Origin: Clostridia bacterium
GTDB lineage: Bacteria; Bacillota; Clostridia; Oscillospirales; CAG-272
Assembly (NCBI GenBank): GCA_017482495.1
Contig: JAFUMU010000034.1
Coordinates: forward strand, 1 to 51,648
Length of the DNA stretch: 51,648 nucleotides
Direction of reading: 5' to 3'
Part shown: one piece after another, positions 294 through 37,958 of the stretch
How positions within the stretch are numbered: the first letter of the stretch is position 1
How the letters are laid out: each line of letters begins with the position of its first letter
Program-made: the position numbers and the translations under genes
The notes under the pieces: model-generated
The model's database searches: none
The model's input: only the letters and a program-made list of their open reading frames with translations
Told to the model about the DNA's origin: nothing

Positions 294-464
294 AGGAGGA
301 ACCTTTTAAGGAAAGGTTCCTCCCGAACCCACCTCCAAACCTTTTTAAATAACGCGTATAATGCTGTTTGGGGCTTATGCGGCTAAACGGATTTGTAAAA
401 GTAGCCTTACCCAAAAAGGTTTGAAGAGAGCTCGAGAGAAGCTTTCCTTAAAAGTTTCTCTCGA
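294..464. repeat. Core-less copy of the multi-hairpin element: two inverted copies of its right-end module
   Basis: Hairpins ggaggaaccttt-taagg-aaaggttcctcc (295-323) and tcgagagaagcttt-cctt-aaaagtttctctcga (432-464). 294-~395 is the reverse complement of the right end of the 14956-15292 copy (shared atacgcgtt...aaaaggtttgg...ttccttaaaa). Confidence 0.75.
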
Positions 465-4071: not shown

Positions 4072-4443
4072 ATGAACTATATTGCAACAGAAAACGCACC
4101 TGCCGCTATCGGACCCTACTCCCAGGCAGTTGTTACAGGTAATCTTATCTTCACATCCGGTCAGATCGCTCTCGATCCCGCAACAGGCAACGTTGTGGAG
4201 GGCGGCATCAAGGAGCAGACCGAACAGATCATGAAAAACCTCGGCGCGGTTCTCGCTACCGCAGGCTCCTCCTATGACAAGGCTGTTAAGACAACTTGCT
4301 TCCTTGCCGACATCGCTGACTTCGCCGCTTTTAACGAGATCTACGGCAAGTACTTCACAAGCAAGCCCGCAAGAAGCTGCGTGGCTGTCCGTGACCTCCC
4401 CAAGGGCGTTCTCGCTGAGGTCGAGGTTATCGCTGAGGTTTGA
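4072..4443 (+). CDS. ridA: RidA/YjgF family enamine deaminase
   Basis: APAAIGPYSQA, SGQIALDP, PARSCV, LPKGVLAEVE; co-transcribed with threonine dehydratase. Confidence 0.93.
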   Translation: MNYIATENAPAAIGPYSQAVVTGNLIFTSGQIALDPATGNVVEGGIKEQTEQIMKNLGAVLATAGSSYDKAVKTTCFLADIADFAAFNEIYGKYFTSKPARSCVAVRDLPKGVLAEVEVIAEV

Positions 4444-4461
4444 GATTGGTAGATATTTTTT

Positions 4462-4795
4462 AAGGGGGAACTCTCTTTCGCAGAGAGTTCCCCCTTTGAC
4501 CCCCTCAGAGAACTTTGAATAGGGGTAAGCTTAATATGGTGCGCTAACGTTCGCGTCTTCCCGCCCCAATGCTGTGCATTGGGGACAAAGAAAAGAAGAA
4601 GGATATGAAAACGAAAGCTTGTTTTCGTTTTCATATCCTTCTTCTTTTCGCGGCGACTATTGTCGCCTACGGGAAGACGAACTGTCCCTAACCTCTCCGA
4701 ATTCCATTTAGCTGTAGAATATTCTAACCACCTATATAAGCGTTATCCTAAAAGGTTTGGGGGGCGTGGGGGCCTTTCCTTAAAAGGCTCCCCGC
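4462..4795. mobile_element. Multi-hairpin repeat element, copy A (putative non-autonomous palindromic element)
   Basis: Left hairpin 4462-4496; closing stem cgtcttcccg (4554-4563)/cgggaagacg (4670-4679) enclosing three hairpins; right hairpin with ttccttaa loop 4764-4795. Collinear with 14956-15292. Mobility is inferred from dispersal. Confidence 0.7.
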
Positions 4796-4823
4796 AAAAT
4801 CAAAAAAGCCTCCTCAATTACCC

Positions 4824-5330
4824 TCATCGGTTAAAAGCAAACAGCAAAGCGGTGAGGGATAAGAACAGCCCCAAAAGATTTGCTGCCAAGATGTTGATTA
4901 TCCTGTCTGTTATTTTTTTGCTTTGAAAAATTTTTCTCATCAAGGCGTATATCAGTACACCAAAAAAAGTACCGAGAGTATTAGTAATAATATCCGTAAT
5001 ATCACTTGCGCCGATAGCAAAAGCAAGCTGAAGCGCTTCAAATGCAAGACTACATAAAGCTCCGATCAAGACCACCTTTTTCCACGGCAAGTCAAGCATT
5101 TTGAGGTACACACCGAAGGGAATAAAGATAAGCACATTCAGGATGACTTCTCTGGCGTGAAAGCTTCCAACATCTTTGTCATAATAGAATGGAATAAGAT
5201 TAACGTTTCTTTCGCCTGCAAACCAAGGAATATCGTAAAACGAAAACGCCATTTTAAAAAGCACCAGCCAGGCCAATATCAGGCAGTATATTAAAAAGAT
5301 AATTTTAGTTGCATTTATATGTTTTCTCAT
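4824..5330 (-). CDS. VanZ family membrane protein
   Basis: NLIPF, NVLIFIPFG, EALQ, GASDITDIITNTLG motifs; multiple TM helices. Confidence 0.88.
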   Translation of the reverse strand: MRKHINATKIIFLIYCLILAWLVLFKMAFSFYDIPWFAGERNVNLIPFYYDKDVGSFHAREVILNVLIFIPFGVYLKMLDLPWKKVVLIGALCSLAFEALQLAFAIGASDITDIITNTLGTFFGVLIYALMRKIFQSKKITDRIINILAANLLGLFLSLTALLFAFNR

Positions 5331-5384
5331 AATTTAGTTTTAAAGCTCGCGGGTGAGAGTTTATCCTCTCACCCGCAGAGCTTA

Positions 5385-7535
5385 TTAATCTATATAGTAT
5401 TCGTATTTGTAATACTCCTCCGTGTATTGCTCATCACTGAAAAAATGGAAATAGTCGCATTCAGGCTCGAAATCATCAGGATTGGGCATGTATACAACTA
5501 CATTCTTCCATTCCTCGCCGTATTCAGATTTATCAGACGCAATTGAATACTCGATATTTACAATAATGCAGTTTTCAGGATCAAACTCTGTGGACTTCAT
5601 TCCCTTAGCAAGCGCCTTGAAGTCGGCGTCAAGCTCATCAGGAATATTGTAAAGATCATAAAGCTCATAGGTGTTAATTGTCCACTCATTTGTGCCCATC
5701 TGAACATGTATATCGAAATACTTGTCTACAGTATTTTCGTAATCGGAAAGCAACTCGTATAAAACATCCATTTCATCCTTTGCACTGTCATTGATCTTAT
5801 CCATAATAAGCTCAGAGGTTTTGGGAAGAATGTCATAATTTATTTTGAAGCTGACTCTCTTGCTGGTTCCGTCCATAGTATAGCTGATTTCAAAGCCGTT
5901 GGAATCCATTGCATCATTTCTCAGGTTGTCGATCCACTTGTTGAAGTCAACATTCTCTATCTCTTCACAAACAGAGTCATATATCTCCTTCCTGTCTTCG
6001 TCTGTAAGAACGGGGCTGAACCAATATTCTCCTGTGTACACATTAAGTGTACGTACAATGGGATCAGGAAGCTCTACAAACTTATCCTTATATTCCTTGT
6101 TATCGGAAATTATCTCGATTATCTCATTATACTCTGTAAAATCTATCTGTATATTTCTTGTCTTTTTAATTCCCAGACCGGAAACAAAGGAAACCTCCAT
6201 ATATGTGGCAACATATGAGCTTGTTTCGGGATCGTATGTGTCTCTTCCGTAATATGTGCCTCTCTCTGAGAGTTCAACACTTTCTCTCAGCGCCTTAGTT
6301 GCTATTTTAATAGCCGCTTTATCCTCAATTCTGATAGCCGCCGCCTTTTCTGAAGCATATTTATAGAAGCTCACCTCATAGTCGCTGTCGAAGCCGTCGC
6401 TTTCAAGATATATAGCCTTAACATCGTCCGAATCGGGAGTGTAGGAATGAACGTACGCCGCTCCTCCCAGACATACGGCAACTATAAGGACATTAAGTCC
6501 TACAAGTACACCCAGACCGGGAATAGTTTTGGGAATAGATCTGAAGGTCTTCTGCGTAATAAGCTCGTATGCAAAATATACGATTATAGCAATGGGATAG
6601 AGGATTATTGCTGCACCTATTTCAAACTCCATAAGCAGTCCGCAGGTGGTAACACCGCTTATAACAAGACCAACGCATATTCTGATTACATGCTGTGTCA
6701 GCTTTCCGGGAGCAGAATGACCTGCTGTTTCACTCTTTCTGCGGCAGAAAAGGAACACAGCAAGAAGGGCATATATGATCGCAATGACAGTAGAATATAT
6801 GTCACAATCAAGATTATCACGGTAGAGATCATTATAACCGCCTCCGCCGAAAAACATATATATCATCGCCCAGATAACGTTGTATTTGTGACCGAATACA
6901 CCAAAGTTGCCGCCAAGGACGGGAGCGAGCTCTGAAAGTGTCATGGATATCATCGTTATCATAAGTCTGGGCAGGAACATTATAAGTCCGGCACAGGTAA
7001 TATTCGCAACAGGTGTACCTGTGATACTCATTGCCATAATGAGCACGAACACTACCATAGCTGTCTGAGCGGCGATCGTGAAAAGGATATCAAACATTCC
7101 CGCAAGAGACACTATAAATATCTTGGGCATCATCAGATACGTTACAATAGTAGCAATACTGTAGATGACTGTAAGTGCCGCGATCCAAGTAAATATAGCC
7201 GCTATGAAGCTGATGAACATACAGATTCGTGTGTAGGGCAATGAGTGATAGAAGTCGGATGTGCTTCTCTTATTGAATCCACCGAACAACACAAATGTAA
7301 ACACAGGTGCAACTACTATGGGCACAGCCACCATAAAGGAGCACATTGACATATAATCTACGACCTGAGCGGAATAATCGTCAATGTAGTATTCGTATGC
7401 CGTTGCGCTGATATACTGAATAACAGGTATGGCAATTCCGAAAAGAAGGAGAGCGGCAAGGAAAATAACACCTGTAAGTCTTAGCTGACGCAGACCTTCA
7501 ACATACAGTCCGCGGGAAAATAACTTTTTCTTCAT
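5385..7535 (-). CDS. ABC transporter permease with large C-terminal soluble domain
   Basis: Start MKKKLFSRG after AAAGGAGA; about 10 hydrophobic segments; DFYHSLPYTR motif; follows the ABC ATPase. Confidence 0.85.
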   Translation of the reverse strand: MKKKLFSRGLYVEGLRQLRLTGVIFLAALLLFGIAIPVIQYISATAYEYYIDDYSAQVVDYMSMCSFMVAVPIVVAPVFTFVLFGGFNKRSTSDFYHSLPYTRICMFISFIAAIFTWIAALTVIYSIATIVTYLMMPKIFIVSLAGMFDILFTIAAQTAMVVFVLIMAMSITGTPVANITCAGLIMFLPRLMITMISMTLSELAPVLGGNFGVFGHKYNVIWAMIYMFFGGGGYNDLYRDNLDCDIYSTVIAIIYALLAVFLFCRRKSETAGHSAPGKLTQHVIRICVGLVISGVTTCGLLMEFEIGAAIILYPIAIIVYFAYELITQKTFRSIPKTIPGLGVLVGLNVLIVAVCLGGAAYVHSYTPDSDDVKAIYLESDGFDSDYEVSFYKYASEKAAAIRIEDKAAIKIATKALRESVELSERGTYYGRDTYDPETSSYVATYMEVSFVSGLGIKKTRNIQIDFTEYNEIIEIISDNKEYKDKFVELPDPIVRTLNVYTGEYWFSPVLTDEDRKEIYDSVCEEIENVDFNKWIDNLRNDAMDSNGFEISYTMDGTSKRVSFKINYDILPKTSELIMDKINDSAKDEMDVLYELLSDYENTVDKYFDIHVQMGTNEWTINTYELYDLYNIPDELDADFKALAKGMKSTEFDPENCIIVNIEYSIASDKSEYGEEWKNVVVYMPNPDDFEPECDYFHFFSDEQYTEEYYKYEYYID

Positions 7536-7551
7536 TGCAGTATCTCCTTTC

Positions 7552-8445
7552 TCAATCAAGGTTGAAGGTGTAGCCCAAAGCTTCCATTTCGTAGGTGAAC
7601 ACCTCTTCAAGCGTGAGAGGAAGTACGTCAAGAAGTATGGGGTTGAGGGCGGACAGACGCATTACAGTCTCGCTTCTGTCTCCTCTTACTATCATATTTG
7701 TAACAGAACCATGACGGACGCTGTGTACTATGTCAATATCTCCGAATATCTCATTGGTGTAATCGTCACGGAAAGCTATCTGTATCTTAAACTGTGATGT
7801 TTTTAGATTCTGAACATCGCTCTCAAGTACAAGCCCTCCGCGGTGAAGTAGCGCCAGCTGATCGCATGTGTCCTCAAGCTCTCTGAGTGAGTGGGATGTA
7901 ATGATAGCACTTGCGCCTCTGTCAACAACATCCTGACAGATAAGCTTCTTTATATAGTTTCTCATAACGGGGTCAAGTCCGTCGAAGGTCTCATCAAAGA
8001 ATATATAATCAGGTCTTGCGGCAAGAGCAAGTATGGTCACCGCCTGACGGCGCATACCCTTTGAAAAAGTATTTAAACTTTTTCTTGTATCAAGGCCAAG
8101 ATCTGTTGCAAGCTGTCTGAATCTGTCGTAGTCAAAGCCAGGATAGATGGAGCGGTACATTACTGCCATGCGCTCCATGGTCGCTCCGGCAAGATAAAAG
8201 AGCTCGTCAGGTACATATGCTATCTTAGACTTAATTGCAGGATTCTCATATATAGGCTCACCGTCAAGGAGCGCTGTTCCGGAATCTGCTCTGTAAACAC
8301 CGGAAATCGTTCTGAGAAAGGTGGATTTACCTGCACCGTTTGAGCCGACCATGCCATAGATACAGCCTTCGTTTATGGTACAGCTTATGTTGTCAAGCGC
8401 TACAAAATCACCGAAGCGCTTCGTCAGATTTTCAGTTTTGATCAT
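7552..8445 (-). CDS. ABC transporter ATP-binding protein (YtrB-like)
   Basis: GSNGAGKST, FSKGMRR signature, FFDETFDGLD, TSH. Confidence 0.93.
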   Translation of the reverse strand: MIKTENLTKRFGDFVALDNISCTINEGCIYGMVGSNGAGKSTFLRTISGVYRADSGTALLDGEPIYENPAIKSKIAYVPDELFYLAGATMERMAVMYRSIYPGFDYDRFRQLATDLGLDTRKSLNTFSKGMRRQAVTILALAARPDYIFFDETFDGLDPVMRNYIKKLICQDVVDRGASAIITSHSLRELEDTCDQLALLHRGGLVLESDVQNLKTSQFKIQIAFRDDYTNEIFGDIDIVHSVRHGSVTNMIVRGDRSETVMRLSALNPILLDVLPLTLEEVFTYEMEALGYTFNLD

Positions 8446-8461
8446 AACCTATTTCCTTTCA

Positions 8462-8836
8462 TTAATTGTCTGCGGATGAAAATCCTTTTTCCACCGCTTC
8501 TCTTATTTCCTTCTCTGTCACTCCTAAAAGCAACATTTCACGAACAAGCTCCGTAAGCTTGCTAAGATTTCCCTTGGCTGCATCCCTGAGTATTTCTTCT
8601 GCATTATCTGCAATAAAGCATCCTCTGCCGGGTACAGAATGCGCTATTCCTTTGGCATCAAGCTCAGAATATGCTTTCTGTATGGTATTGGGATTGACCG
8701 AAAGCTCAATCGACAAGCTTCGTACCGAAGGAAGCTGATCGCCGGGACTCATTATTCCAAGAGTTATCAGCTTTTCTACCTGTTCTATGATCTGTTCATA
8801 AACCGGAGTTCGTGACATTCCGTCTATTCGGAACAT
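8462..8836 (-). CDS. GntR family regulator, YtrA subfamily
   Basis: PVYEQI, LPSVRSLS, VNPNTIQKAYSEL, PGRG; short C-terminus; heads an ABC operon. Confidence 0.92.
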   Translation of the reverse strand: MFRIDGMSRTPVYEQIIEQVEKLITLGIMSPGDQLPSVRSLSIELSVNPNTIQKAYSELDAKGIAHSVPGRGCFIADNAEEILRDAAKGNLSKLTELVREMLLLGVTEKEIREAVEKGFSSADN

Positions 8837-8858
8837 AATTACCTCCTATTCATCCGTC

Positions 8859-8918
8859 GTAACTGTACTATGTGTCTTAGTACAGTTACAGTATAACAGC
8901 ACATTTTTATCTTGTCAA
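8859..8918 (-). promoter_or_regulatory. Sigma-A promoter with overlapping YtrA-type operator
   Basis: Minus strand TTGACA (8918-8913)-N17-TATACT (8895-8890); perfect IR gtaactgtacta-N7-tagtacagttac (8859-8889) over the transcription start. Confidence 0.85.
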
Positions 8919-8973
8919 GGGGGTAGAAATAAAATTTCTCACATTTAGTGTATGCTAAAAAGTCCACAAGCAA

Positions 8974-8999
8974 AAAAGGCGGGGACAAGCCCCGCCTTT
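8974..8999 (-). terminator. Intrinsic terminator after miaA
   Basis: aaaggcgggg-acaag-ccccgccttt hairpin with A-run on the left (U-tract on minus strand). Confidence 0.7.
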
Positions 9000-9031
9000 C
9001 GAGAAAAACACAATGATCTTCTTAAAACGAT

Positions 9032-9991
9032 TTATTCAACAAATCCTTTCACAGCTTCAACTGCATCATTTACTATATCATCGAAATCCCGCATCCTCTC
9101 GCCGTCGTCGGGATGGATCATAACTGCATCTTTGTATCTTTTGAACCATGTTATCTGCCTCTTGGCATATCTGCGTGAATTCTGCTTTATGCGCTCAGCC
9201 GCCTCCGCAAGAGTCTCCTCACCTGCAAAATAGGGCAGCAGCTCCTTATATCCGATAGCCTGAAATGCAGGTGATCTTTCGCTGATAAGTCCCTTTTCGA
9301 AAAGCATGCGGGCCTCTTCTTCAAGACCGGCGCTAAGCATCATGTCAACTCTTTTGTCGATACGCCGGTAAAGCAGATCTCTGTTTTTAAATTCAAGCAC
9401 GATTATTTTCGCATCGTAAGGAGGAAGATCCTCCTTTGAACGTTTGTCCCATTCGGTTTTTGTTGTGCCTGTTGTTTCAAATATCTCAATAGCTCTTATT
9501 ACTCTGCGAACATTATTGGGATGAGTAGCTTCTGCCGCCTCGGGATCGATCGCCCTCAGTCTGTTATGAACTGCCTCGTTACCTTCCCTCTCCGCCATAA
9601 GCGCAAGCTCTTCCCTGAGAGCATCATCACGCACTCCCTCGGAGTAGCTTGAAATGGACGTGACTGCATCAAGATATAATCCCGTACCTCCGCAAAAAAC
9701 GGGAAGCCTTCCTCGCGCGATTATCTCATCAGCCGTTTTTTTGCCTATATCACTATAATCGGCGCAGGAGAAATCCGAGTCTGGAGTAAGTATCCCCACA
9801 AGATGATGGGGAACTCCGAGGCGCTCCTCCATTGTGGGTGCGGCGGTGCCGATCTCCATTCCCTTATATATCTGCATTGAATCGTTTGAAACGACTTCTC
9901 CGCCGAAACGGAGCGCAAGCTGTACTGCAAGAGCTGTTTTTCCCGAAGCTGTAGGTCCTGCAACAGCTATTAATTTCTTTCTTTCGTTCAC
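9032..9991 (-). CDS. miaA: tRNA dimethylallyltransferase
   Basis: GPTASGKT, DSMQIYKGMEIGTA, GGTGLY, AIGYKE, RRYAKRQITWF. Confidence 0.97.
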   Translation of the reverse strand: MNERKKLIAVAGPTASGKTALAVQLALRFGGEVVSNDSMQIYKGMEIGTAAPTMEERLGVPHHLVGILTPDSDFSCADYSDIGKKTADEIIARGRLPVFCGGTGLYLDAVTSISSYSEGVRDDALREELALMAEREGNEAVHNRLRAIDPEAAEATHPNNVRRVIRAIEIFETTGTTKTEWDKRSKEDLPPYDAKIIVLEFKNRDLLYRRIDKRVDMMLSAGLEEEARMLFEKGLISERSPAFQAIGYKELLPYFAGEETLAEAAERIKQNSRRYAKRQITWFKRYKDAVMIHPDDGERMRDFDDIVNDAVEAVKGFVE

Positions 9992-10092
9992 TTATATCTG
10001 TCCTTTATGATTTATGCAATTGCAGAATATGCATTTCCGCTCTATCATTTTATGCGATTGACTAAGTCTATATCCCCTTATATTTAAAGGCT

Positions 10093-11121
10093 TTATACAA
10101 CAGTTCCTCCGCCGATAACGATGTCGCCATCGTAGAAAACAACCGCCTGTCCCGGGGTTGCCGCCCTTTGGGGTTCATCGAATGTCACTCTAACTGTGTC
10201 ATCTGCTATAAGCTCCACCGTTGCGCCCTGCTCTGTGTGCCTATATCTTATCTTCGCCGCAGCTCTGAAGGGGAATGAAGGTGTGCTGTCGGCTATCCAG
10301 TTAAGGTCTTTTGCCACAACCGTTCTCGTAAAAAGCTCCTCATTTGATCCGAGAATGATCCTGTTATTCTCGGCGTCCTTTTCAAGAACATAGAGAGGTG
10401 TGTGTATACCGAGTCCAAGCTTTTTATGCTGACCTATAGTGTACCGTATGATACCCTTGTGTCTGCCCATGACCTTACCGTCACGAAGGACGAAGTCGCC
10501 CTCGGGAGGGATCTTGCTCGTATATCTTTCGATAAATCCAACATAATCTCCGTCGGGTACAAAGCAGATATCCTGGCTTTCCTTTTTCCCAGCATTACGT
10601 AGTGATGCTTCAAGAGCAAGCTCACGCACCTCGGATTTATCCATAGCGCCAAGAGGCAGGATAAGACGTGAGAGAACTTTCTGCGTCAGGTTATATAACA
10701 CATAGCTCTGGTCCTTTTGGGGATCCTTTCCCTTTTTAAGAAGGTATCTGTCACCGCATTTTTCTACTACAGCATAATGGCCCGTTGCAATTTTTTCAGC
10801 TCCAAGCGCTGTTGCTTTGTCTGCAAAAAGTCCAAACTTAAGCGTTTTATTGCAAACAATACAGGGATTAGGCGTTTCGCCTCTAAGATACGAGCTTACA
10901 AATTCTTCCATAACAAAACGTCGGAATTCCTCTCTCACATCAAGCACGTGAAAATCCATCCCCAGCGCCTGCGCTACCGCTCTCGCATCTGAAACACCGT
11001 CGCTGTCACATTCTCCGTGCATGACCATAGTTGCGCCGATGCACTCATATCCTGCCCTTTGCAGGCAAACAGCCGCCGCTGAGGAATCTACCCCTCCGCT
11101 CATACCAAGCAATACCTTCAT
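10093..11121 (-). CDS. mnmA: tRNA 2-thiouridine(34) synthase
   Basis: GMSGGVDSS, TPNPCIVCN, ATGHY, KDQSY, SQDICF, TPGQAVVFY. Confidence 0.97.
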   Translation of the reverse strand: MKVLLGMSGGVDSSAAAVCLQRAGYECIGATMVMHGECDSDGVSDARAVAQALGMDFHVLDVREEFRRFVMEEFVSSYLRGETPNPCIVCNKTLKFGLFADKATALGAEKIATGHYAVVEKCGDRYLLKKGKDPQKDQSYVLYNLTQKVLSRLILPLGAMDKSEVRELALEASLRNAGKKESQDICFVPDGDYVGFIERYTSKIPPEGDFVLRDGKVMGRHKGIIRYTIGQHKKLGLGIHTPLYVLEKDAENNRIILGSNEELFTRTVVAKDLNWIADSTPSFPFRAAAKIRYRHTEQGATVELIADDTVRVTFDEPQRAATPGQAVVFYDGDIVIGGGTVV

Positions 11122-11181
11122 AATTTCTCCTATAGAAAAGCGGCGCTAAAGACGCCGCTTTAAGTTATCATTTGCATTATC

Positions 11182-11613
11182 TCAGTCGCAATGACAGCAA
11201 TTAGAACAGCCGCTTTCTCCGAACAGGTCGGCATCGTATTCGATACCGTTTTTGTCGTAATAGTCCTTGATAGCCGCCTTAACTGCCTCCTCTGCAAGAA
11301 CAGAGCAATGGATCTTAACGGGGGGCAGTCCGTCGAGAGCCTCAACAACTGCCTTGTTTGTAAGTGTGAGGGCTTCGGAAACGGGCTTGCCCTTAATAAG
11401 CTCGGTTGCCATAGAGCTTGTTGCAATAGCGGATGCGCATCCAAATGTGTTGAACTTAACGTCAACTATACAGTCATCCTCTATCTTAAGATATATCTTC
11501 ATAATGTCGCCGCACTTTGCGTTACCAACCTCGCCAACGCCGTCGGCATTTTCTATTTTACCAACATTTCTGGGGTTCTGGAAATGATCCATAACCTTTG
11601 CACTGTATGCCAT
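11182..11613 (-). CDS. iscU: Fe-S cluster scaffold NifU/IscU
   Basis: MAYSAKVMDHFQNPRNVG, CGD, FGCASAIA, KIHCSVLAE; start after AGGAGA. Confidence 0.95.
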   Translation of the reverse strand: MAYSAKVMDHFQNPRNVGKIENADGVGEVGNAKCGDIMKIYLKIEDDCIVDVKFNTFGCASAIATSSMATELIKGKPVSEALTLTNKAVVEALDGLPPVKIHCSVLAEEAVKAAIKDYYDKNGIEYDADLFGESGCSNCCHCD

Positions 11614-11629
11614 CTCTATTTCTCCTGAA

Positions 11630-12811
11630 TTATAAAATTTCTTCTCCGCGAAGGATCTTTTCCCATACGGGGGACATTTCTCTAAGTCTTTCAACTACCT
11701 TGGGTACACATTCGATAATATGGTCTATCTCTGCGTCTGTTGTATATTCAGAAAAAGACAGACGAAGTGAGCCGTGAGCCACTGCGTGGGGAAGCCCCAA
11801 TGCAAGAAGCACGTGGCTGGGATCAAGTGAGCCGGATGTGCAGGCGGAACCGGACGATGCGGCAATTCCGTACATATCAAGCATAAGCAGAAGGCTTTCA
11901 CCCTCTATGCCCTGGAAGCACATATTAACGTTACCGGGAAGTCTCTTCACTCTATCGCCGTTAACTATTGTGCGGTCGATCTTTGAGAGGCTGTCTATAA
12001 GGCGGTCTCTCATTGCACAAAGCTTCTCAGCATTAGCGTCGATATTTGAAACAGCATCTTCAAGTGCTGTTGCCATACCCATAATAGCCGGAAGATTCTC
12101 CGTTCCCGCTCTCTTGCCCTTCTCCTGTGCGCCGCCGCTGATAAGGGATTCGATATATGCGCCTCTTCTGCAATAAAGAGCGCCGATACCCTTAGGTCCG
12201 TGGAACTTATGGGCTGAGATGGAAAGCATATCTATCTTCATTTCCTTAACGTCGATATGCAGATGACCTGCCGCCTGAACTGCGTCGGTATGGAATGTTA
12301 CCTTTCTTTCGCGGCACACTTCACCGATCTCGGCGATAGGCATTACTGTACCTATCTCGTTATTTGCGAACATAACTGTTACAAGGCAGGTGTCATCACA
12401 TATAGCTTCCTTAACCTGCTCTGCTGTTATAAGACCGCTTTTGTCAACATCAAGCAGAGTGATCCTATAGCCTTCCTTTTCAAGGCGGTCAAGTGTGTGA
12501 AGAACGGCGTGATGCTCGATCTTTGTGGAAATAATATGCTTCTTATTCTTCTTTGCTCCGAAATGAGCGGCAGAGATTATAGCCTGGTTATCAGCCTCGC
12601 TTCCGCCGGATGTGAAATATATCTCACCTGCGTCGGCGCCGATACAACCGCCTATTCTCTCTCTTGCCTCCATAAGCGCCTCAGCCGCTGACTGACCGAA
12701 GGAGTGGAGGCTGGACGGATTTTCATATTCCGCGTCCATATATTTGATCATTTCCGCCTTCGCCCTCTCAGAAATAGGGGTCGTTGCGGCATTGTCTGCA
12801 TAAACTCTCAT
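11630..12811 (-). CDS. nifS: Cysteine desulfurase NifS/IscS
   Basis: DNAATT, NPSSLH, HTDAVQA, SAHKFHGPKG, SSGSACTSG. Confidence 0.96.
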   Translation of the reverse strand: MRVYADNAATTPISERAKAEMIKYMDAEYENPSSLHSFGQSAAEALMEARERIGGCIGADAGEIYFTSGGSEADNQAIISAAHFGAKKNKKHIISTKIEHHAVLHTLDRLEKEGYRITLLDVDKSGLITAEQVKEAICDDTCLVTVMFANNEIGTVMPIAEIGEVCRERKVTFHTDAVQAAGHLHIDVKEMKIDMLSISAHKFHGPKGIGALYCRRGAYIESLISGGAQEKGKRAGTENLPAIMGMATALEDAVSNIDANAEKLCAMRDRLIDSLSKIDRTIVNGDRVKRLPGNVNMCFQGIEGESLLLMLDMYGIAASSGSACTSGSLDPSHVLLALGLPHAVAHGSLRLSFSEYTTDAEIDHIIECVPKVVERLREMSPVWEKILRGEEIL

Positions 12812-12861
12812 ATTTTGTTACCTTCCCAAAGGCTTTTTTTCTGCCTTTCTATCAAATAAAT

Positions 12862-12890
12862 AGTATATCATTACTGTCACATTATGTCAA
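12862..12890 (-). promoter_or_regulatory. Sigma-A promoter of nifS-iscU-mnmA
   Basis: Minus strand TTGACA (12890-12885)-N17-TATACT (12867-12862). Confidence 0.75.
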
Positions 12891-13034
12891 TGTTTATTAC
12901 GCATTTTATTATACTACCGTTTTGGTAGGATTTCAATAGTATTTACTGTATTTTTGTTATTTTTTACATCCTGTATGGTAAAAATTCAAAATGTATGCTA
13001 CAATTATATCAACAATAATCAAGGGAGCGATAAT

Positions 13035-14063
13035 ATGTCCACAAAAGACGAGCTTATAGCCGCACAGCTTGAAGTGATACGCACCATGACCGAGCGCAAT
13101 ATGCGCAATCTGGGAACAGATCTTTTCGGAAGCACACCTTGTCACAATGATAAGGTGGAAGAAGAATCTGAAGAAAAAGCTGCCACCGTCTCTAAGGCAG
13201 AGGATACTGCCAAAAAAGAAGAAAAAACCGTGGAAGCCAAAAAAGAAGATATCGACTCTCTCAAAAAAGAGCTTGAAACATATATAGGTCTTGGAGAGGT
13301 AAAAAATGAAGTAAAGAGTCTTATCAATCTTGCAACGGTATATGCCCTTCGCAGAAATAACGACCTTCCCACACCCGAGATGTCCCTTCATCTTGTTTTC
13401 TCGGGTAATCCCGGTACCGGCAAAACAATGATAGCCCGCTTTATGGCAAGAGTTTATCATTCTTTGGGACTTCTGTCAAAGGGACAGCTCATTGAGGTGG
13501 ACCGTTCATCTCTTGTGGCAGGATACGTAGGTCAAACAGCGCAAAAGACCACTAAGGTGCTTGAAAGCGCCCTTGGCGGAGTTCTTTTTGTTGACGAGGC
13601 ATACTCCCTCACGTCCAAAAGCGAAAACGACTACGGCATGGAAGCAGTTGAGACTATCCTTAAATACATGGAGGATCACCGCGACGATATAATAATTATT
13701 ATCGCAGGCTACAGCGACCTTATGCAGGATTTTATCGACTCCAACCCCGGACTTCAATCCCGATTCAACAAATACATCGACTTTGCCGACTACACTCCCG
13801 AGGAAATGCTTGAGATATTTAAGCTCAATTGCAAAAAGGGACAGTACACCGTCTCTGATGGCGCTGAAAAGCTGCTGCTTGAATATTTCTGTGACTGCGC
13901 TCTTACTCCTGCCGACTTCGGCAACGCACGCGGCGTTAGAAACACATTTGAAAAGGTCATCTCCGCTCAGGCTAACAGAATTGCCGCTATGGCAAATGTC
14001 ACTCGCGACGACCTTGTTTCACTTACAGACGAAGACGTTAAAAACGCAATATCCGACACTTGA
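13035..14063 (+). CDS. SpoVK/CbbX-family AAA+ ATPase
   Basis: HLVFSGNPGTGKT, LVAGYVGQTA, GGVLFVDEAYSL, NPGLQSRF, FGNARGVRN; start MSTKD after AGGGAG. Confidence 0.9.
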   Translation: MSTKDELIAAQLEVIRTMTERNMRNLGTDLFGSTPCHNDKVEEESEEKAATVSKAEDTAKKEEKTVEAKKEDIDSLKKELETYIGLGEVKNEVKSLINLATVYALRRNNDLPTPEMSLHLVFSGNPGTGKTMIARFMARVYHSLGLLSKGQLIEVDRSSLVAGYVGQTAQKTTKVLESALGGVLFVDEAYSLTSKSENDYGMEAVETILKYMEDHRDDIIIIIAGYSDLMQDFIDSNPGLQSRFNKYIDFADYTPEEMLEIFKLNCKKGQYTVSDGAEKLLLEYFCDCALTPADFGNARGVRNTFEKVISAQANRIAAMANVTRDDLVSLTDEDVKNAISDT

Positions 14064-14108
14064 CACATTTGACGCTATGTGATAATATAAGACAAATAGT
14101 TTAAAGGA

Positions 14109-14891
14109 GTGAACACTATGGGAAGATTTCTCGGTTCCTATGACGGAGAAGAGATAGACCGCCCCGACCTCAATAAATGTCCCGACTGCGGATGCTTTTT
14201 TGCTTCCGACAACTGTCCCCTTTGCGGCAAGCCCTGCCCCGAAGAATTTCGTGCAGGCAACCGCAAGCCCCTTAAGAAGAAAAAGAAAAAAGGCAATTCC
14301 TCATCGAGGACTGTTACCTTTATAGACTGGTATCATCAGTGGTGGGTCATTATCCTTGCTCTGCTGTTTTTCCCTATCATGGGACTTATCCTGCTGTTCA
14401 CAAGTCCACACAAAAGATCGATCAAGATAGGAGTGGGCATTGTTGCCGTTGTGTGGGGACTTATTTCCGCCGTCGGCGTCGGAAATATTATAAACGGCAT
14501 CAATCGACTTACATATAAGCCTGTCGACACCTCACTTTCAAGAGATGAATATATCTCCGCCTGTGAAGCTGTGACAAATGAAGATTTTTACCGTAATTCC
14601 GAGGAATACAAGGGCAAACACCTTAGTCTTACACTGACCGTTTCGGAAAAAATACGGGACGCCGAGGCTGAATATACAGGCAACGATTATCCCGTTTACT
14701 ATGAATGCGTGGATGCTTCAGGTGCCACATTCACAATTCTTATCCGAGACTGTATTATCGACCGCTCGGAAAACTTTATTCCCGGAGATGTTATTACCGT
14801 CTACGGCGAGGGCGACGGCGAAATATCAGTTTATGATGAATTCTATGAGATGCACACCGCGCCCTGCCTTAATGTGGCGTATGTCGAGTGA
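14109..14891 (+). CDS. Membrane protein: N-terminal CxxC zinc ribbon, two TM helices, C-terminal soluble domain
   Basis: CPDCG...CPLCG, Lys-rich stretch, two hydrophobic helices; AAGGAG RBS. Confidence 0.75.
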   Translation: MNTMGRFLGSYDGEEIDRPDLNKCPDCGCFFASDNCPLCGKPCPEEFRAGNRKPLKKKKKKGNSSSRTVTFIDWYHQWWVIILALLFFPIMGLILLFTSPHKRSIKIGVGIVAVVWGLISAVGVGNIINGINRLTYKPVDTSLSRDEYISACEAVTNEDFYRNSEEYKGKHLSLTLTVSEKIRDAEAEYTGNDYPVYYECVDASGATFTILIRDCIIDRSENFIPGDVITVYGEGDGEISVYDEFYEMHTAPCLNVAYVE

Positions 14892-14955
14892 AAATATTAT
14901 TCGTTTTTTTCGGTGGAAACCTCTCTTTCGGAGCGAGAGCCCCCGCTTGTTTTTT

Positions 14956-15292
14956 CGGTGGAACCTCTCTTTCGCAGAGAGGTTCCACCGAGCCCCCTCC
15001 AGAGAACTTTGAATAAAGGCTAATTTTATATGGTGCGCTGAAGTTTGCGCATTCCCGTATGCGACCGTAGGTCGCCTGAAAAAGCAAAAGGATATTAAAA
15101 AAGGAAACAAGCTTCCTTTTTTAATATCCTTTTCTTTTCCTTATCCCCAATACACAGCATTGGGGCGGGAATGCTAACCTACCTTATACTGCTCCGAATA
15201 CCGTTTCGCTTTAGAATATTCTAACCACCCAAATACGCGTTTGTTTAAAAGGTTTGGGGGTCAAAGGGGGGATTTCCTTAAAATCCCCCCTT
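14956..15292. mobile_element. Multi-hairpin repeat element, copy B (core inverted relative to copy A)
   Basis: Left hairpin 14956-14990, preceded by a degenerate duplicate at ~14904-14940; closing stem gcattcccg (15049-15057)/cgggaatgc (15166-15174); right hairpin ending 15292. Confidence 0.7.
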
Positions 15293-26021: not shown

Positions 26022-26095
26022 TGGGATATGGTGTAACGGTAACACACGGGACTTTGACTCCCGCTTTGCAGGTTCGAGCCCTGCTATCCCAGCCA
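26022..26095 (+). tRNA. tRNA-Gln (UUG)
   Basis: Acceptor TGGGATA/TATCCCA, anticodon arm cggga-cTTTGac-tcccg, T-loop GGTTCGAGCC, encoded CCA. Confidence 0.96.
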
Positions 26096-35594: not shown

Positions 35595-35865
35595 GTACGG
35601 CTTAAACTTATTCTTGCGGCGGCTTTACGGCAAGGGGTCCTCAAAACGAGCGTGCCGAGTTTTGGGGTTCACGTGAGGCCGCCCTACAGGGACCTTGGGT
35701 TTGTGTAGTTTAAATGGACTTCAACGGCGGGATGAGGGCATCCCGCCCTACAGGTGTTTTGGGTTTGTGCGGTTTAAACGGGTTTCAACGGAGCGACGAG
35801 GGCGGCCGGGGTTCCCCAACGCGAGCTTGCCGAGCTTTGGGGGTTCGCGGCGTCGCTCCCTACAG
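35594..35865 (-). repeat. Tandem array of three GTAG-type REP palindromes
   Basis: Palindromes ending in CTAC at 35618-35687, 35726-35751 and 35790-35863, separated by related spacers (ttgggtttgtg...tttaaa.gg.ttcaac). Confidence 0.8.
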
Positions 35866-35904: not shown

Positions 35905-36180
35905 TAAGCAAAATTCGTAGCGGTTACAGTATTTAAGCCTGCCCCAATGCGACGTAGGCGCATAGGAAAAAGAAAAGGATATGAATAACGGTAGTTCGCT
36001 TCCGTTTTCATATCCTTTTGTTTTTCCGTAAAAATCTGCCACCGGGCAGATTTCGGGCAGGCGCGATCTTCGCTGCACCATTCCACCCCCATTTAGCTAA
36101 AGAATACCTTTACCACAATATAAGCGTTAATTAAAAAGGTTTGGGGGTGCAGGGGGGATTTCCTTAAAATCCCCCTTGCA
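35905..36180. mobile_element. Multi-hairpin repeat element, copy C (left end missing, larger segment inverted)
   Basis: Closing stem gcctgccc (35937-35944)/gggcaggc (36055-36062), central aaggatatga...tcatatcctt hairpin, right end catttagc...aaaaggtttggggg...gggggatttccttaaaatccccc as in copies A and B. Confidence 0.68.
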
Positions 36181-37581: not shown

Positions 37582-37832
37582 TAAAAAATCCCAAGCGTAA
37601 AACAACGCTTGGGACGAAATAACTAATTTCGCGGTACCACCCAAATTGACTGTCAGGTCCACTCTGCCGCATACTGACATATGCGCTCCGCTGTAACGTG
37701 CGTTCACGTCGACGCCTACTTGATTCGGGCCGCCCTCAAAAGCCCATTCACCGCTTCTCCGCTACCGACTCCCACCAACCGTCGGCTCTCTGAAAACCTG
37801 CAAAGCAGCTACTATCCTTTTTCATCGGTTTA
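37582..37832 (-). promoter_or_regulatory. T-box riboswitch (Trp specifier) with terminator
   Basis: Minus strand: agagagccgacggttggtgggagtcgg (AG box/stem I), specifier loop gaaTGGg, T-box aatttgggtggtaccgcg, terminator tcccaagcgt..acgcttgggatttttt; promoter TTGACA (37865-37860)-N17-TAAAAT. Confidence 0.92.
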
Positions 37833-37958
37833 TATTATTTTATCACAGCCCTTCTGCCTTGTCAAGGGGAAACATTCACCTTTCGGGCAAAAGTAACGGC
37901 TATTGACATATTGTTTTAAATAAGGTAGAATATCTTATATAAATATAAGGAGTACCCC

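What the first reader, a model, noticed from the sequence alone, without database searches (positions are those of the whole stretch)
4462..15292. Dispersed ~335-bp multi-hairpin element whose internal core is flipped between copies
Seen: copies A (4462-4795) and B (14956-15292) have almost the same length and collinear flanks (left hairpin + cagagaactttgaata + atatggtgcgct; then ctccgaat..tagaatattctaaccacc..aaaaggtttggggg + ttccttaa-loop hairpin). The ~107-bp core between the closing arms is reverse-complemented. A reads ccccaatgctgtgcattgggg / long aaggatat..atatcctt hairpin with gcttgt loop / ggcgac..gtcgcc. B reads gcgac..gtcgc / long hairpin with acaagc loop / ccccaatacacagcattgggg. Stems covary (closing stem cgtcttcccg/cgggaagacg vs gcattcccg/cgggaatgc; left hairpin ggggg/ccccc vs cggtg/caccg). 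Established: flip/flop isomers of branched hairpins mark rolling-hairpin replication by HUH endonucleases (parvoviral ITRs), and REP/REPIN elements are spread by HUH RAYT transposases. Inference: this is a non-autonomous ssDNA-structured mobile element, or an invertible structured DNA/RNA switch, served by an enzyme encoded elsewhere. Tolerance of strand inversion argues for function as DNA structure rather than as a conventional ncRNA. I do not recognise it as a named family.
Basis: partly seen in the sequence, partly recalled or inferred. Interest (0 to 1): 0.82.

Follow-up and report, generated by a model that had tools for sequence, protein, structure and literature searches.

The report
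Dispersed nested-palindrome repeat with flipping core
This is a real, many-copy family of non-coding hairpin-rich DNA repeats that fill the gaps between convergent genes in an uncultured gut Clostridia genus, and its central hairpin cluster has been turned around repeatedly, most likely as a side effect of its own inverted repeats.

Summary
Copies A (4462-4795) and B (14956-15292) have collinear flanks. The segment between CCCG and CGGG is reverse-complemented.

It is a large family. A model of the core finds 86 matches, about 43 loci, in this 1.57-Mb, 80%-complete draft genome. Related families occur in 12 of 31 other genomes of the genus. None was found in 150 genomes of the order.

The core is a 9-bp closing stem around three hairpins. 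Pairing is almost purely Watson-Crick: 98.2% of cells are paired, with 118 double-change cells against 8 G-U cells.

Both core orientations occur in two subfamilies, 14:7 and 3:3. The long hairpin also flips on its own, with variable breakpoints.

Seventeen of 24 loci lie between convergent genes. The long hairpin scores as a terminator on both strands.

I found no Rfam match, no Y1/HUH gene and no Hin-type invertase in this genome.

Best reading: a REP/BIME/MITE-like structured DNA repeat whose flips come from inverted-repeat-mediated inversion. What mobilises it is unknown. The HUH rolling-hairpin idea is not supported.

The parts
4464..4494 (+). Copy A, left end hairpin H1 (13-bp G5/C5-clamped stem)
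   Evidence: More than 20 further copies of this module were hit in the genome.
4499..4563 (+). Copy A, left flank L. It holds the conserved CAGAGAACTTTGAATA motif (4506-4521), a small covarying GCG/CGC hairpin and the 5' closing arm (4554-4563).
4564..4669 (+). Copy A core in 'flip' order. Hairpin a is at 4564-4584, the long A/T-flanked hairpin b at about 4587-4652 and the GCGAC hairpin c at 4652-4667.
   Evidence: The core model R1 scores 133.7 bits on the + strand. Hairpin b is terminator-like on both strands.
4670..4763 (+). Copy A, 3' closing arm (4670-4679) and right flank R. R holds CTCCGAAT, TTTAGCT..AGAATAT, GCGTTA and AAAAGGTTTGGGGG (4750-4763).
4768..4793 (+). Copy A, right end hairpin H2
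   Evidence: H2-like modules were also found alone in this genome and in relatives.
14956..15057 (+). Copy B, H1 (14956-14990), left flank and 5' closing arm (15049-15057)
15058..15165 (+). Copy B core in 'flop' order: hairpin c first (15061-15075), long hairpin, hairpin a last (15145-15165)
   Evidence: R1's best hit is on the - strand at 119.6 bits.
15166..15290 (+). Copy B, 3' closing arm, right flank (AAAAGGTTTGGGGG at 15247-15260) and H2 (about 15266-15290)
35937..36175 (+). Third, partial copy. It has a variant three-hairpin core closed by GCCTGCCC/GGGCAGGC, a right flank and H2, but no left flank. It resembles the right half of the long variant on contig C11.
31497..31555 (+). Solo 5' module: H1 plus CCCC..GGAGAACTTAAAATA
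298..401 (-). Partial 3' module (end of the right flank plus an H2-like hairpin) in reverse orientation

Best explanation
A and B are two members of a genus-restricted superfamily of non-coding, modular, nested-palindrome DNA repeats. In kind they resemble REP/BIME mosaics and MITEs.

A unit has these parts, in order:
- end hairpin H1
- a conserved linear 5' motif (CCCC..CAGAGAAC)
- the left flank
- a 9-bp closing stem around a three-hairpin core: a short hairpin, a long hairpin flanked by an A-tract and a T-tract, and an invariant GCGAC/GTCGC hairpin
- the right flank
- a conserved 3' motif (AAAGGTTTGGGG)
- end hairpin H2

The family has amplified to dozens of copies in some species and stays single-copy in others. 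Copies sit mainly in the whole spacer between convergent genes. There the long hairpin is the only terminator-like structure for both genes (inferred function: a bidirectional terminator/insulator cassette, tolerated or used by the host).

The flipped core is real and recurrent. I attribute it to inversion mediated by the element's own inverted repeats. That means polymerase template switching, or recombination between complementary arms. The same process would keep the arms perfectly Watson-Crick. Because the core folds the same way in either orientation, flips are neutral and drift.

Shown: the anatomy, copy number, distribution, Watson-Crick covariation, both orientations in two subfamilies, nested flips and genomic context.

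Inferred: the inversion mechanism, the terminator role, and mobility by an unknown trans factor.
For: Copy number. nhmmer finds 36 left flanks, 39 long-hairpin loci and 35 right flanks. Core model R1 gives 86 matches, both strands counted, about 43 loci in G000.

Distribution.
- 13 of 32 genus genomes match.
- There are bursts in G045 (44 matches), G018 (25) and G014 (30, mostly the long hairpin only).
- Five close relatives hold a single locus each, between eno and icd.
- None of 150 other genomes of the order matches.

Structure. 98.2% of 1101 cells are paired, and 0 of 500 shuffles reach that. 25 of 46 pairs show double changes. There are 118 double-change cells against 8 G-U cells.

Orientation.
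- Of 20 canonical copies, 13 are flip and 7 flop.
- A wider census gives type I 14:7 and type II 3:3.
- The type II flip copy C64 is closest in its flanks to flop copy C46. So there was at least one inversion in each subfamily.
- Trees give 5 changes on the flank tree (random expectation 6.0) and 4 on the core tree.

Nested flips.
- The long-hairpin loop is GCTYGT in 13 and ACRAGC in 7 of 20 copies, independent of core orientation.
- Breakpoints differ. In C42_6858 only the loop is inverted. In C24, C86 and C71 the loop and the bulged base are inverted.
- Small-hairpin loops also occur in both orientations in the sister family of G045 (TTTCA 5, TGAAA 3; CTTTG 2, CAAAG 1).

Literature. Template switching between inverted-repeat arms homogenises the arms and inverts the spacer, reversibly and recurrently (PMC8604942, passages). 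It gives multi-base compensatory changes and loop inversions (PMC8794818, passages).

Context.
- 17 of 24 loci with two called neighbours lie between convergent genes.
- Gene ends lie about 45-70 nt from the flank models, which leaves room only for H1 and H2.
- Terminator-like sites within element A and within element B fall only on the long hairpin, on both strands. One further + strand site (14931-14948) lies just upstream of B.
- In relatives the RidA gene instead has a canonical terminator.

No coding capacity or known family. There is no Rfam hit and no plasmid or phage hit.
Against: - Hairpin a has 9-bp arms and a 3-nt loop but never flips on its own, in 0 of 20 copies (alignment). The whole core has arms of the same length and a 107-nt spacer, yet is flipped in 7 of 20. 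A pure arm-length/spacer-length rule would predict the opposite.
- In the sister family of G045/G018, none of 24 oriented cores is flipped, although the closing stem is also 9 bp.
- TTCCCG/CGGGAA and GCGAC/GTCGC are invariant in all 24 aligned cores, across species. That looks like protein recognition and leaves room for an enzyme-driven inversion.
- A single origin of the type I flop state is not excluded by well-supported branches.
- No transposase, target-site duplication or clean empty site was found, so mobility is inferred only from copy-number differences and non-orthologous sites.
- No copy pair exceeds 88% identity, so there is no sign of recent movement in the assembled contigs.
- The terminator role rests on a consensus scan and on spacing, not on RNA data.
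Confidence: 0.55

Rival explanations
1. The element is a non-autonomous ssDNA-structured transposon. It is moved by a Y1/HUH enzyme (RAYT, IS200/IS605-like) or by a rolling-hairpin process. Flip and flop isomers arise by hairpin transfer during copying.
For: - It has a branched hairpin architecture with both isomers.
- Copy number bursts in some species only.
- End modules are almost invariant across five species while neighbouring genes are 73-82% identical. That fits recognition by a conserved trans factor.
- Full-length Y1_Tnp genes exist in 8 of 32 genus genomes, including the burst genomes G045 and G018.
Against: - No Y1_Tnp and no TnpB zinc-ribbon domain were found in G000, which is 80% complete.
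- The Y1 genes of relatives are roughly 700-bp IS200-like units with their own hairpins. They share no significant similarity with any element type (best E 0.21).
- They occur in genomes with 0 or 1 element (G015, G010, G047, G013, G017). They were not found in the burst genomes G000 and G014.
- There is no conserved tetranucleotide 5' of the left end.
- Orientation shows no bias relative to local gene strand: 7 co-oriented, 13 anti-oriented, 15 unclear.
- The palindromes are internal, not terminal.
- The nested flips have variable breakpoints.
Confidence: 0.12
2. The cores are invertons. A site-specific recombinase acting at the invariant TTCCCG/CGGGAA arms flips them in living populations, giving phase-variable control of read-through between convergent genes.
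For: - The closing-arm hexamers and the GCGAC hairpin are invariant in 24 of 24 cores across species.
- Orientation shows no phylogenetic clustering on the flank tree: 5 changes against 6.0 in shuffles.
- Whole-core flips are frequent in G000, yet hairpin a, with equal arm length, never flips alone. No core flip was seen in G045/G018, which have a different closing stem.
- Two tyrosine recombinase genes, both cut by contig ends, are present.
Against: - No promoter-like site lies in the core.
- The core folds into the same structure and the same bidirectional terminator-like hairpin in either orientation, so a flip has no obvious output.
- The only resolvase-domain protein is a 409-aa large serine recombinase of the CcrB/XisF type, not a Hin-type invertase.
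- The inner hairpin flips have variable breakpoints, unlike site-specific crossover.
- No population data were obtainable. The runs held only contigs, and these break at the element.
Confidence: 0.1
3. The unit is a multi-copy structured RNA: an sRNA gene or a 3'-UTR element. Its function lies in the transcript, and the DNA-level flips are incidental.
For: - Asymmetric linear motifs are conserved among copies that are otherwise about 75% identical. AAAGGTTTG is invariant in 25 of 25 right flanks.
- The + strand MFE fold is a closed rod with long-range pairing of the left and right flanks, some of it G-U.
- Flanking genes must be transcribed into the element.
Against: - There is no Rfam match, even at E up to 10, beyond generic hairpin and miRNA-like hits.
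- The scan found no sigma-70-type promoter on the + strand of either copy. Its single hit is on the - strand of B.
- The flank helices have no double compensatory change. All 12 pairs with double changes lie in the core, the closing stem or a small local hairpin of the left flank.
- Core stems avoid G-U almost completely and tolerate strand inversion.
- Orientation relative to tandem genes is 3 sense to 3 antisense.
- The one RNA run laid gave no contig over the element, which is only weak evidence.
Confidence: 0.15
4. The inverted cores are assembly artefacts of a metagenome-assembled genome.
For: The genome is an 89-contig MAG. Many copies lie at contig ends. Palindromes can confuse de Bruijn assemblers.
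Against: - The closing arms are 9-12 bp, far shorter than assembly k-mers, so the junction k-mers fix the orientation.
- The flipped copies differ from the others by many substitutions and by covarying closing stems.
- Both orientations recur in a second subfamily.
- Contigs from other samples cover the junction between the core and the right flank of A with 0-1 differences (X2 4588-5990, X3 4621-5427).
Confidence: 0.02

Closest known systems
REP / BIME mosaics and REPINs of Proteobacteria (mobilised by RAYT/TnpA-REP)
   Same: - Extragenic and high in copy number.
- Built from GC-clamped hairpins combined with conserved linker motifs into mosaics.
- Concentrated at 3' ends and between convergent genes.
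- Vertically persistent within a lineage, with species-specific expansion.
- Proposed roles in termination and 3'-end protection.

The family features here are recalled. The REPIN/RAYT and REP papers were seen only as listings and abstract starts.
   Different: - The unit is 10 times longer (about 335-750 bp).
- It contains a four-way-junction core with a long A/T-flanked hairpin.
- H1 and H2 are not inverted copies of each other.
- No RAYT was found in this genome.
- The Y1 genes of relatives are unrelated IS200-like units.
- The host is an Oscillospirales (Firmicutes) genus.
MITEs (for example Correia, RUP, BOX; review PMC3184786, seen as a listing only)
   Same: Non-coding, structured, dispersed and intergenic. 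There are subfamilies and composite or truncated derivatives that themselves propagate. An example is the 'double-L' variant at three loci.
   Different: - The terminal inverted repeat is only weak (CCCC..AACCT / AGGTT..GGGG).
- No target-site duplication was seen in the aligned flanks.
- No parent IS was found.
- Copies are old, with a median identity of 75.5%, yet their stems remain perfect.
Template-switch (quasipalindrome) mutation: arm homogenisation and spacer or loop inversion
   Same: It explains the perfect Watson-Crick arms, the multi-base compensatory changes, the recurrent and reversible inversions and the variable breakpoints (PMC8604942 and PMC8794818, passages read).
   Different: - The cases in the passages I read have spacers of a few bases. 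The yeast inversions changed 2-5 bases, and only with arms over 9 bp.
- Here a 107-nt multi-hairpin spacer is inverted between 9-12-bp arms in a third of copies.
- A hairpin with a 3-nt loop and equal arms is never inverted.
Parvoviral flip/flop terminal hairpins (rolling-hairpin replication, HUH Rep)
   Same: A branched hairpin exists as two isomers that are reverse complements of each other.
   Different: - The palindromes here are internal to chromosomal repeats, not genome termini.
- No Rep/HUH gene was found.
- The sub-hairpins flip independently.
Bidirectional intrinsic terminators
   Same: The A-tract, stem-loop and T-tract geometry is scored as terminator-like on both strands. The element occupies the whole spacer between convergent genes.
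   Different: The stem is long and AT-rich (4-6 G-C pairs of 20 counted). It is embedded in a conserved 300-bp unit with further hairpins and linear motifs.

Membership tests
Rfam families (any) | Match to a curated covariance model at its gathering score | tested here: not met
   Whole window at gathering score: only a T-box and a tRNA, both elsewhere. Window 4400-4850 at E up to 10: only sub-threshold miRNA-like hairpin hits and other weak matches.
REP/REPIN-RAYT | A single-copy Y1 (RAYT) gene flanked by the repeats | tested here: not met
   PF01797 gives no match in G000, which is 80% complete. The Y1 genes of relatives show no similarity to any element module; the best E is 0.21.
REP/REPIN-RAYT | The unit is two short REP hairpins in inverted orientation (feature recalled) | tested here: not met
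   H1 and H2 differ in sequence and are not inverted copies. In A's self-matches only the palindromes themselves match on the reverse strand.
REP/BIME | High-copy extragenic hairpin mosaics at gene 3' ends | tested here: met
   About 43 core loci plus solo modules. 17 of 24 loci lie between convergent genes.
MITE | Terminal inverted repeats and a target-site duplication | tested here: inconclusive
   There is only a weak, interrupted inverted repeat (CCCC..AACCT / AGGTT..GGGG). No direct repeat was evident at the aligned ends. No empty site was available.
MITE | A related autonomous IS with the same ends | tested here: not met
   No ORF of 90 aa or more lies in the long variants. No matching ends flank the Y1 genes. 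There are no hits in plasmids or phages.
IS200/IS605-derived PATE | A conserved target tetra- or pentanucleotide 5' of the left end, and strand-biased insertion (features recalled) | tested here: not met
   The bases upstream of H1 are AT-rich but not one conserved word. Orientation against local gene strand is 7 co-oriented to 13 anti-oriented.
Parvovirus-type flip/flop hairpin | A terminal palindrome of a linear ssDNA replicon resolved by an HUH Rep | tested here: not met
   The cores are internal to chromosomal intergenic repeats. No Y1_Tnp (HUH) domain was found; Rep-type domains were not searched.
Site-specific invertons | Inverted repeats around a segment that carries an orientation-dependent signal, plus an invertase | tested here: inconclusive
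   Invariant 9-bp inverted repeats are present. There is no promoter in the core and no Hin-type invertase. Two partial tyrosine recombinases remain uncharacterised. Population heterogeneity could not be tested.
Bidirectional intrinsic terminator | A stem-loop followed by a T-run on both strands | tested here: met
   The consensus scan gives 4 sites in A and 5 in B, all on the long hairpin and on both strands. The shuffle means are 1.0 and 0.8. Function was not tested.

The most novel reading that the evidence does not exclude
The elements are substrates of an undescribed machinery conserved across the genus. It would recognise the near-invariant end modules (H1-CCCCC-TCAGAGAAC and GGTTTSGGGGG-H2) and the invariant TTCCCG/CGGGAA + GCGAC/GTCGC four-way junction. 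It would copy or invert the elements through folded DNA. This would be a new kind of structure-guided mobile or invertible DNA in Firmicutes that does not use a Y1/HUH transposase. The whole-core flips would be its footprint rather than a passive replication error.
Probability: 0.12. Interest if true: 0.85.

Novelty: new variant of a known kind. Interest (0 to 1): 0.5.

Why it matters
- It adds a large, architecturally distinct family to the small list of bacterial dispersed structured repeats (REP/BIME, REPIN, MITEs). The host is an uncultured gut Oscillospirales genus in which, in my four literature searches, nothing of the kind turned up.
- The copies are a natural experiment. Dozens of diverged copies keep perfect Watson-Crick nested palindromes and show inversions at three nested scales. 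That makes it possible to test how far template switching alone can maintain and invert complex hairpins.
- The mismatch I could not explain is that the whole core flips often while an equal-armed small hairpin never does. Together with the near-invariant end modules, this points to a still unknown trans factor.
- On the practical side, these repeats break assemblies of this genus. They probably also act as the terminators of many convergent housekeeping genes.

Tried and rejected
Searches that found nothing
- Rfam at gathering score and at E up to 10: nothing relevant.
- Exact two-motif pattern over 185,579 species genomes: 0 hits. The window's own genome may be left out of that collection.
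- BLAST of A against 40 relatives found only the end-hairpin modules. This first suggested a species-limited element, which was wrong: reading those loci and the covariance model showed diverged homologues.
- Plasmid and phage collections: no match.
- TnpB zinc-ribbon domain: none.

Empty-site comparison
- Relatives are only about 70-82% identical in coding DNA.
- Synteny breaks right after RidA, and for the loci on C14 and C74.
- So no clean filled-against-empty pair was obtained.
- The eno-icd spacer carries a full element in five relatives. In G000 it carries only a reversed 3' module plus a canonical terminator.

Sequencing runs
- All 20 runs are kept as Logan contigs.
- The four runs laid (three DNA or unlabelled, one RNA) gave contigs that stop inside the element.
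- They gave no joint across it, no isomer information and no RNA contig on it. That is no evidence either way.

Flank structure
- Long-range helices between the left and right flanks came out of the MFE and alifold runs.
- I rejected them as unsupported because none of their pairs shows a double change.

Promoter readings of CAGAGAACTTTGAATA-N17-GTG (sigma-70, ECF, sigma-54) were checked by eye and with the scan. None fits.

Other
- Replication-strand bias, using local gene strand as a proxy: not significant.
- Supplementary files of papers were not consulted.
- Prior description: four searches returned nothing on such elements in Clostridia. This is a limited search, not proof of absence.

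Full report
**1. The observation**

A (4462-4795) and B (14956-15292) share collinear flanks. The segment between CCCG and CGGG is reverse-complemented: A 97-214 matches window 15171-15052 on the minus strand at 82.6%. Both strands of A fold far better than shuffles, with z-scores of -12.4 and -11.9.

**2. Size of the family**

The window is contig C23 of a 1.57-Mb, 89-contig, 45% G+C genome that is 80% complete.

- Iterated nhmmer finds 36 left flanks, 39 long-hairpin loci (78 hits over both strands) and 35 right flanks.
- These combine into 25 loci that hold both flanks.
- Twenty are canonical, about 265 nt from flank to flank and about 335 nt with the end hairpins.
- Four are long variants of 600-750 nt with two three-hairpin cores.
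- Three share a propagated 'double-L' composite.
- A second subfamily (type II) has the same end modules but a closing stem of about 40 bp.
- A covariance model of the core (R1) gives 86 matches in G000, about 43 loci when both strands are counted.
- Many copies abut contig ends, so the true number is probably higher.
- Copies are old. Median pairwise identity is 75.5% and the maximum is 88%.

**3. Distribution**

The nearest named records are MAGs labelled Candidatus Avispirillum sp. and Acutalibacteraceae, from animal guts. The runs that hold the window come from ruminant and other animal gut metagenomes.

- R1 matches 13 of 32 genomes of the genus.
- G045 (44 matches) and G018 (25 matches) carry a sister family. 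It has the same plan but a CCGCAGGGG/CCCCTGCGG closing stem.
- G014 has 30 matches, mostly the long hairpin only.
- Five close relatives (G006, G013, G017, G019, G023) each have one locus, between the convergent genes eno and icd.
- In those five copies H1-CCCCCTCAGAGAACCTA, the closing stem, the GCGAC hairpin and GGTTTCGGGGG-H2 are almost invariant. The neighbouring coding DNA is only 73-82% identical to G000.
- The long hairpin in those copies is completely rewritten with compensation.
- In G000 that spacer holds only a reversed 3' module and a canonical terminator.
- No match was found in 150 other genomes of the order. That search used strict filters and scored 23 candidates per genome.

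**4. Structure**

On 24 cores, four of them from relatives and flop copies entered as their reverse complement:

- The structure is a closing stem around three hairpins, with 98.2% of 1101 cells paired. None of 500 shuffles reaches this, and slid controls give 43-56%.
- 25 of 46 pairs carry changes on both sides.
- There are 118 double-change cells but only 8 G-U cells.
- TTCCCG/CGGGAA and GCGAC/GTCGC never vary.

The flanks hold conserved linear motifs: CAGAGAAC, CTCCGAAT, TTTAGCT..AGAATAT, GCGTTA and AAAGGTTTGG. AAAGGTTTG is invariant in 25 of 25 right flanks. The flank helices proposed by folding have no double change. So the element combines strictly Watson-Crick palindromes with asymmetric sequence motifs. 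This argues for constraint or maintenance at the DNA level and against a classical structured RNA. No Rfam family matches.

**5. The flips**

- Of the 20 canonical copies, 13 have hairpin a first (flip) and 7 have the GCGAC hairpin first (flop).
- A regex census of 28 classifiable cores, out of 41 GCGAC hairpins in the genome, gives type I 14:7, one type Ib flip, and type II 3:3.
- In type II, flip copy C64 is nearly identical in its left flank to flop copy C46, and both differ strongly from flop copy C57. So at least one inversion happened within each subfamily.
- Trees need 5 changes of orientation on the flank tree, against a shuffled mean of 6.0, and 4 on the core tree. Both trees are weakly resolved, and a single origin within type I is not excluded.
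- The long hairpin flips independently. Its loop reads GCTYGT in 13 and ACRAGC in 7 of 20 copies, in both core orientations.
- The breakpoints of these inner flips differ. In C42_6858 only the loop is inverted. In C24, C86 and C71 the loop and the bulged G/C are inverted. In C34 both arms carry the extra base.
- In the sister family no core flip was seen in 24 oriented cores, but small-hairpin loops occur in both orientations.

**6. Mechanism**

Variable breakpoints inside the arms, perfect arms with multi-base compensation, and recurrence are what template switching between inverted-repeat arms produces. PMC8604942 describes arm homogenisation and reversible spacer inversion. PMC8794818 describes compensatory changes and loop inversions from single events. 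I read passages of both. I take this, or recombination between the arms, as the most likely cause.

One result does not fit simply. Hairpin a has 9-bp arms and a 3-nt loop and never flips alone, in 0 of 20 copies. The core has equal arms and a 107-nt spacer and flips in a third of copies. With the invariant junction sequences, this keeps an enzyme-driven inversion alive as a minority reading.

**7. Enzymes**

- G000 shows no Y1_Tnp domain, no TnpB zinc ribbon, two tyrosine recombinases cut by contig ends, and one large serine recombinase of the CcrB/XisF type.
- Full-length Y1 genes occur in 8 of 32 genus genomes.
- They are IS200-like units of roughly 700 bp, near-identical between some species (99.6% and 96.3%).
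- They share no significant similarity with any element type.
- They do not track element copy number.

**8. Context and likely role**

- With crude ORF calls (90 aa or more), 17 of 24 loci lie between convergent genes.
- Three loci are sense and three antisense to tandem genes, and one lies between divergent genes.
- Gene ends lie about 45-70 nt from the flank models, so H1 and H2 abut the stop codons and the element fills the spacer.
- Terminator-like sites within A and within B all lie on the long hairpin, on both strands. One further + strand site (14931-14948) lies just upstream of B.
- In relatives RidA has a canonical terminator instead.
- I infer that the elements serve as, or at least replace, bidirectional terminators. 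Because the core is symmetric, its orientation would not matter. This is not shown by RNA data.

**9. Verdict**

This is a real and large family, and a new variant of the REP/BIME/MITE kind of dispersed structured DNA. Its recurrent nested inversions are best explained by its own inverted repeats. The HUH rolling-hairpin inference is not supported. The mobilising factor, and the reason whole cores flip so readily in this species, remain open.

Noticed in passing
window 37607-37834 (-) and 26022-26092 (+): A T-box leader (129.5 bits) and a tRNA gene. They place the organism among the Firmicutes-type bacteria.
   Followed up: no
L017 and L019, about 1875-2090 (G017, G023, downstream of RidA): A multi-hairpin stretch of about 200 nt lies between RidA and its terminator in two relatives. 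It is unlike the element studied here. It may be another structured repeat or RNA.
   Followed up: no
L060, L074, L078 (G018) and L067 (G045), beside the sister-family elements: Tandem arrays of small GC hairpins (GGGGCTCCGCCCC-like) are spaced by GGTATATAC-like words, with a period of about 40 nt. These are REP-array-like clusters adjoining the large elements.
   Followed up: no
L196 vs L197 (G017/G013) and L198 vs L199 (G010/G045): IS200-like units of about 700 bp are 99.6% and 96.3% identical between different species of the genus, while the housekeeping genes compared with G000 are 72-82% identical. This points to recent horizontal movement of that IS.
   Followed up: partly
window 35800-35850, and G000 C74 about 9480-9516 and C42 about 1290-1340: A further hairpin repeat (CCCCGG..GGGGTTCCCCAA..CTCGGCAAGCTCG..) sometimes replaces H1. 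A 35-nt piece of it occurs at 10 or more places in G019 and several places in G006.
   Followed up: no
G000 C43 18104-19265: Two full elements, one flop and one flip, lie about 630 bp apart in the same intergenic region. They are each other's close relatives on the flank tree (support 94/76).
   Followed up: partly
window 4750-4763, 15247-15260, 36134-36147 and tandem repeats after several copies (C42 6504-6545, C46 3958-3994, C51 1989-2013): The 3' module (AAAAGGTTTGGGGG plus H2) is often duplicated in tandem after a full element, and it also occurs alone.
   Followed up: partly
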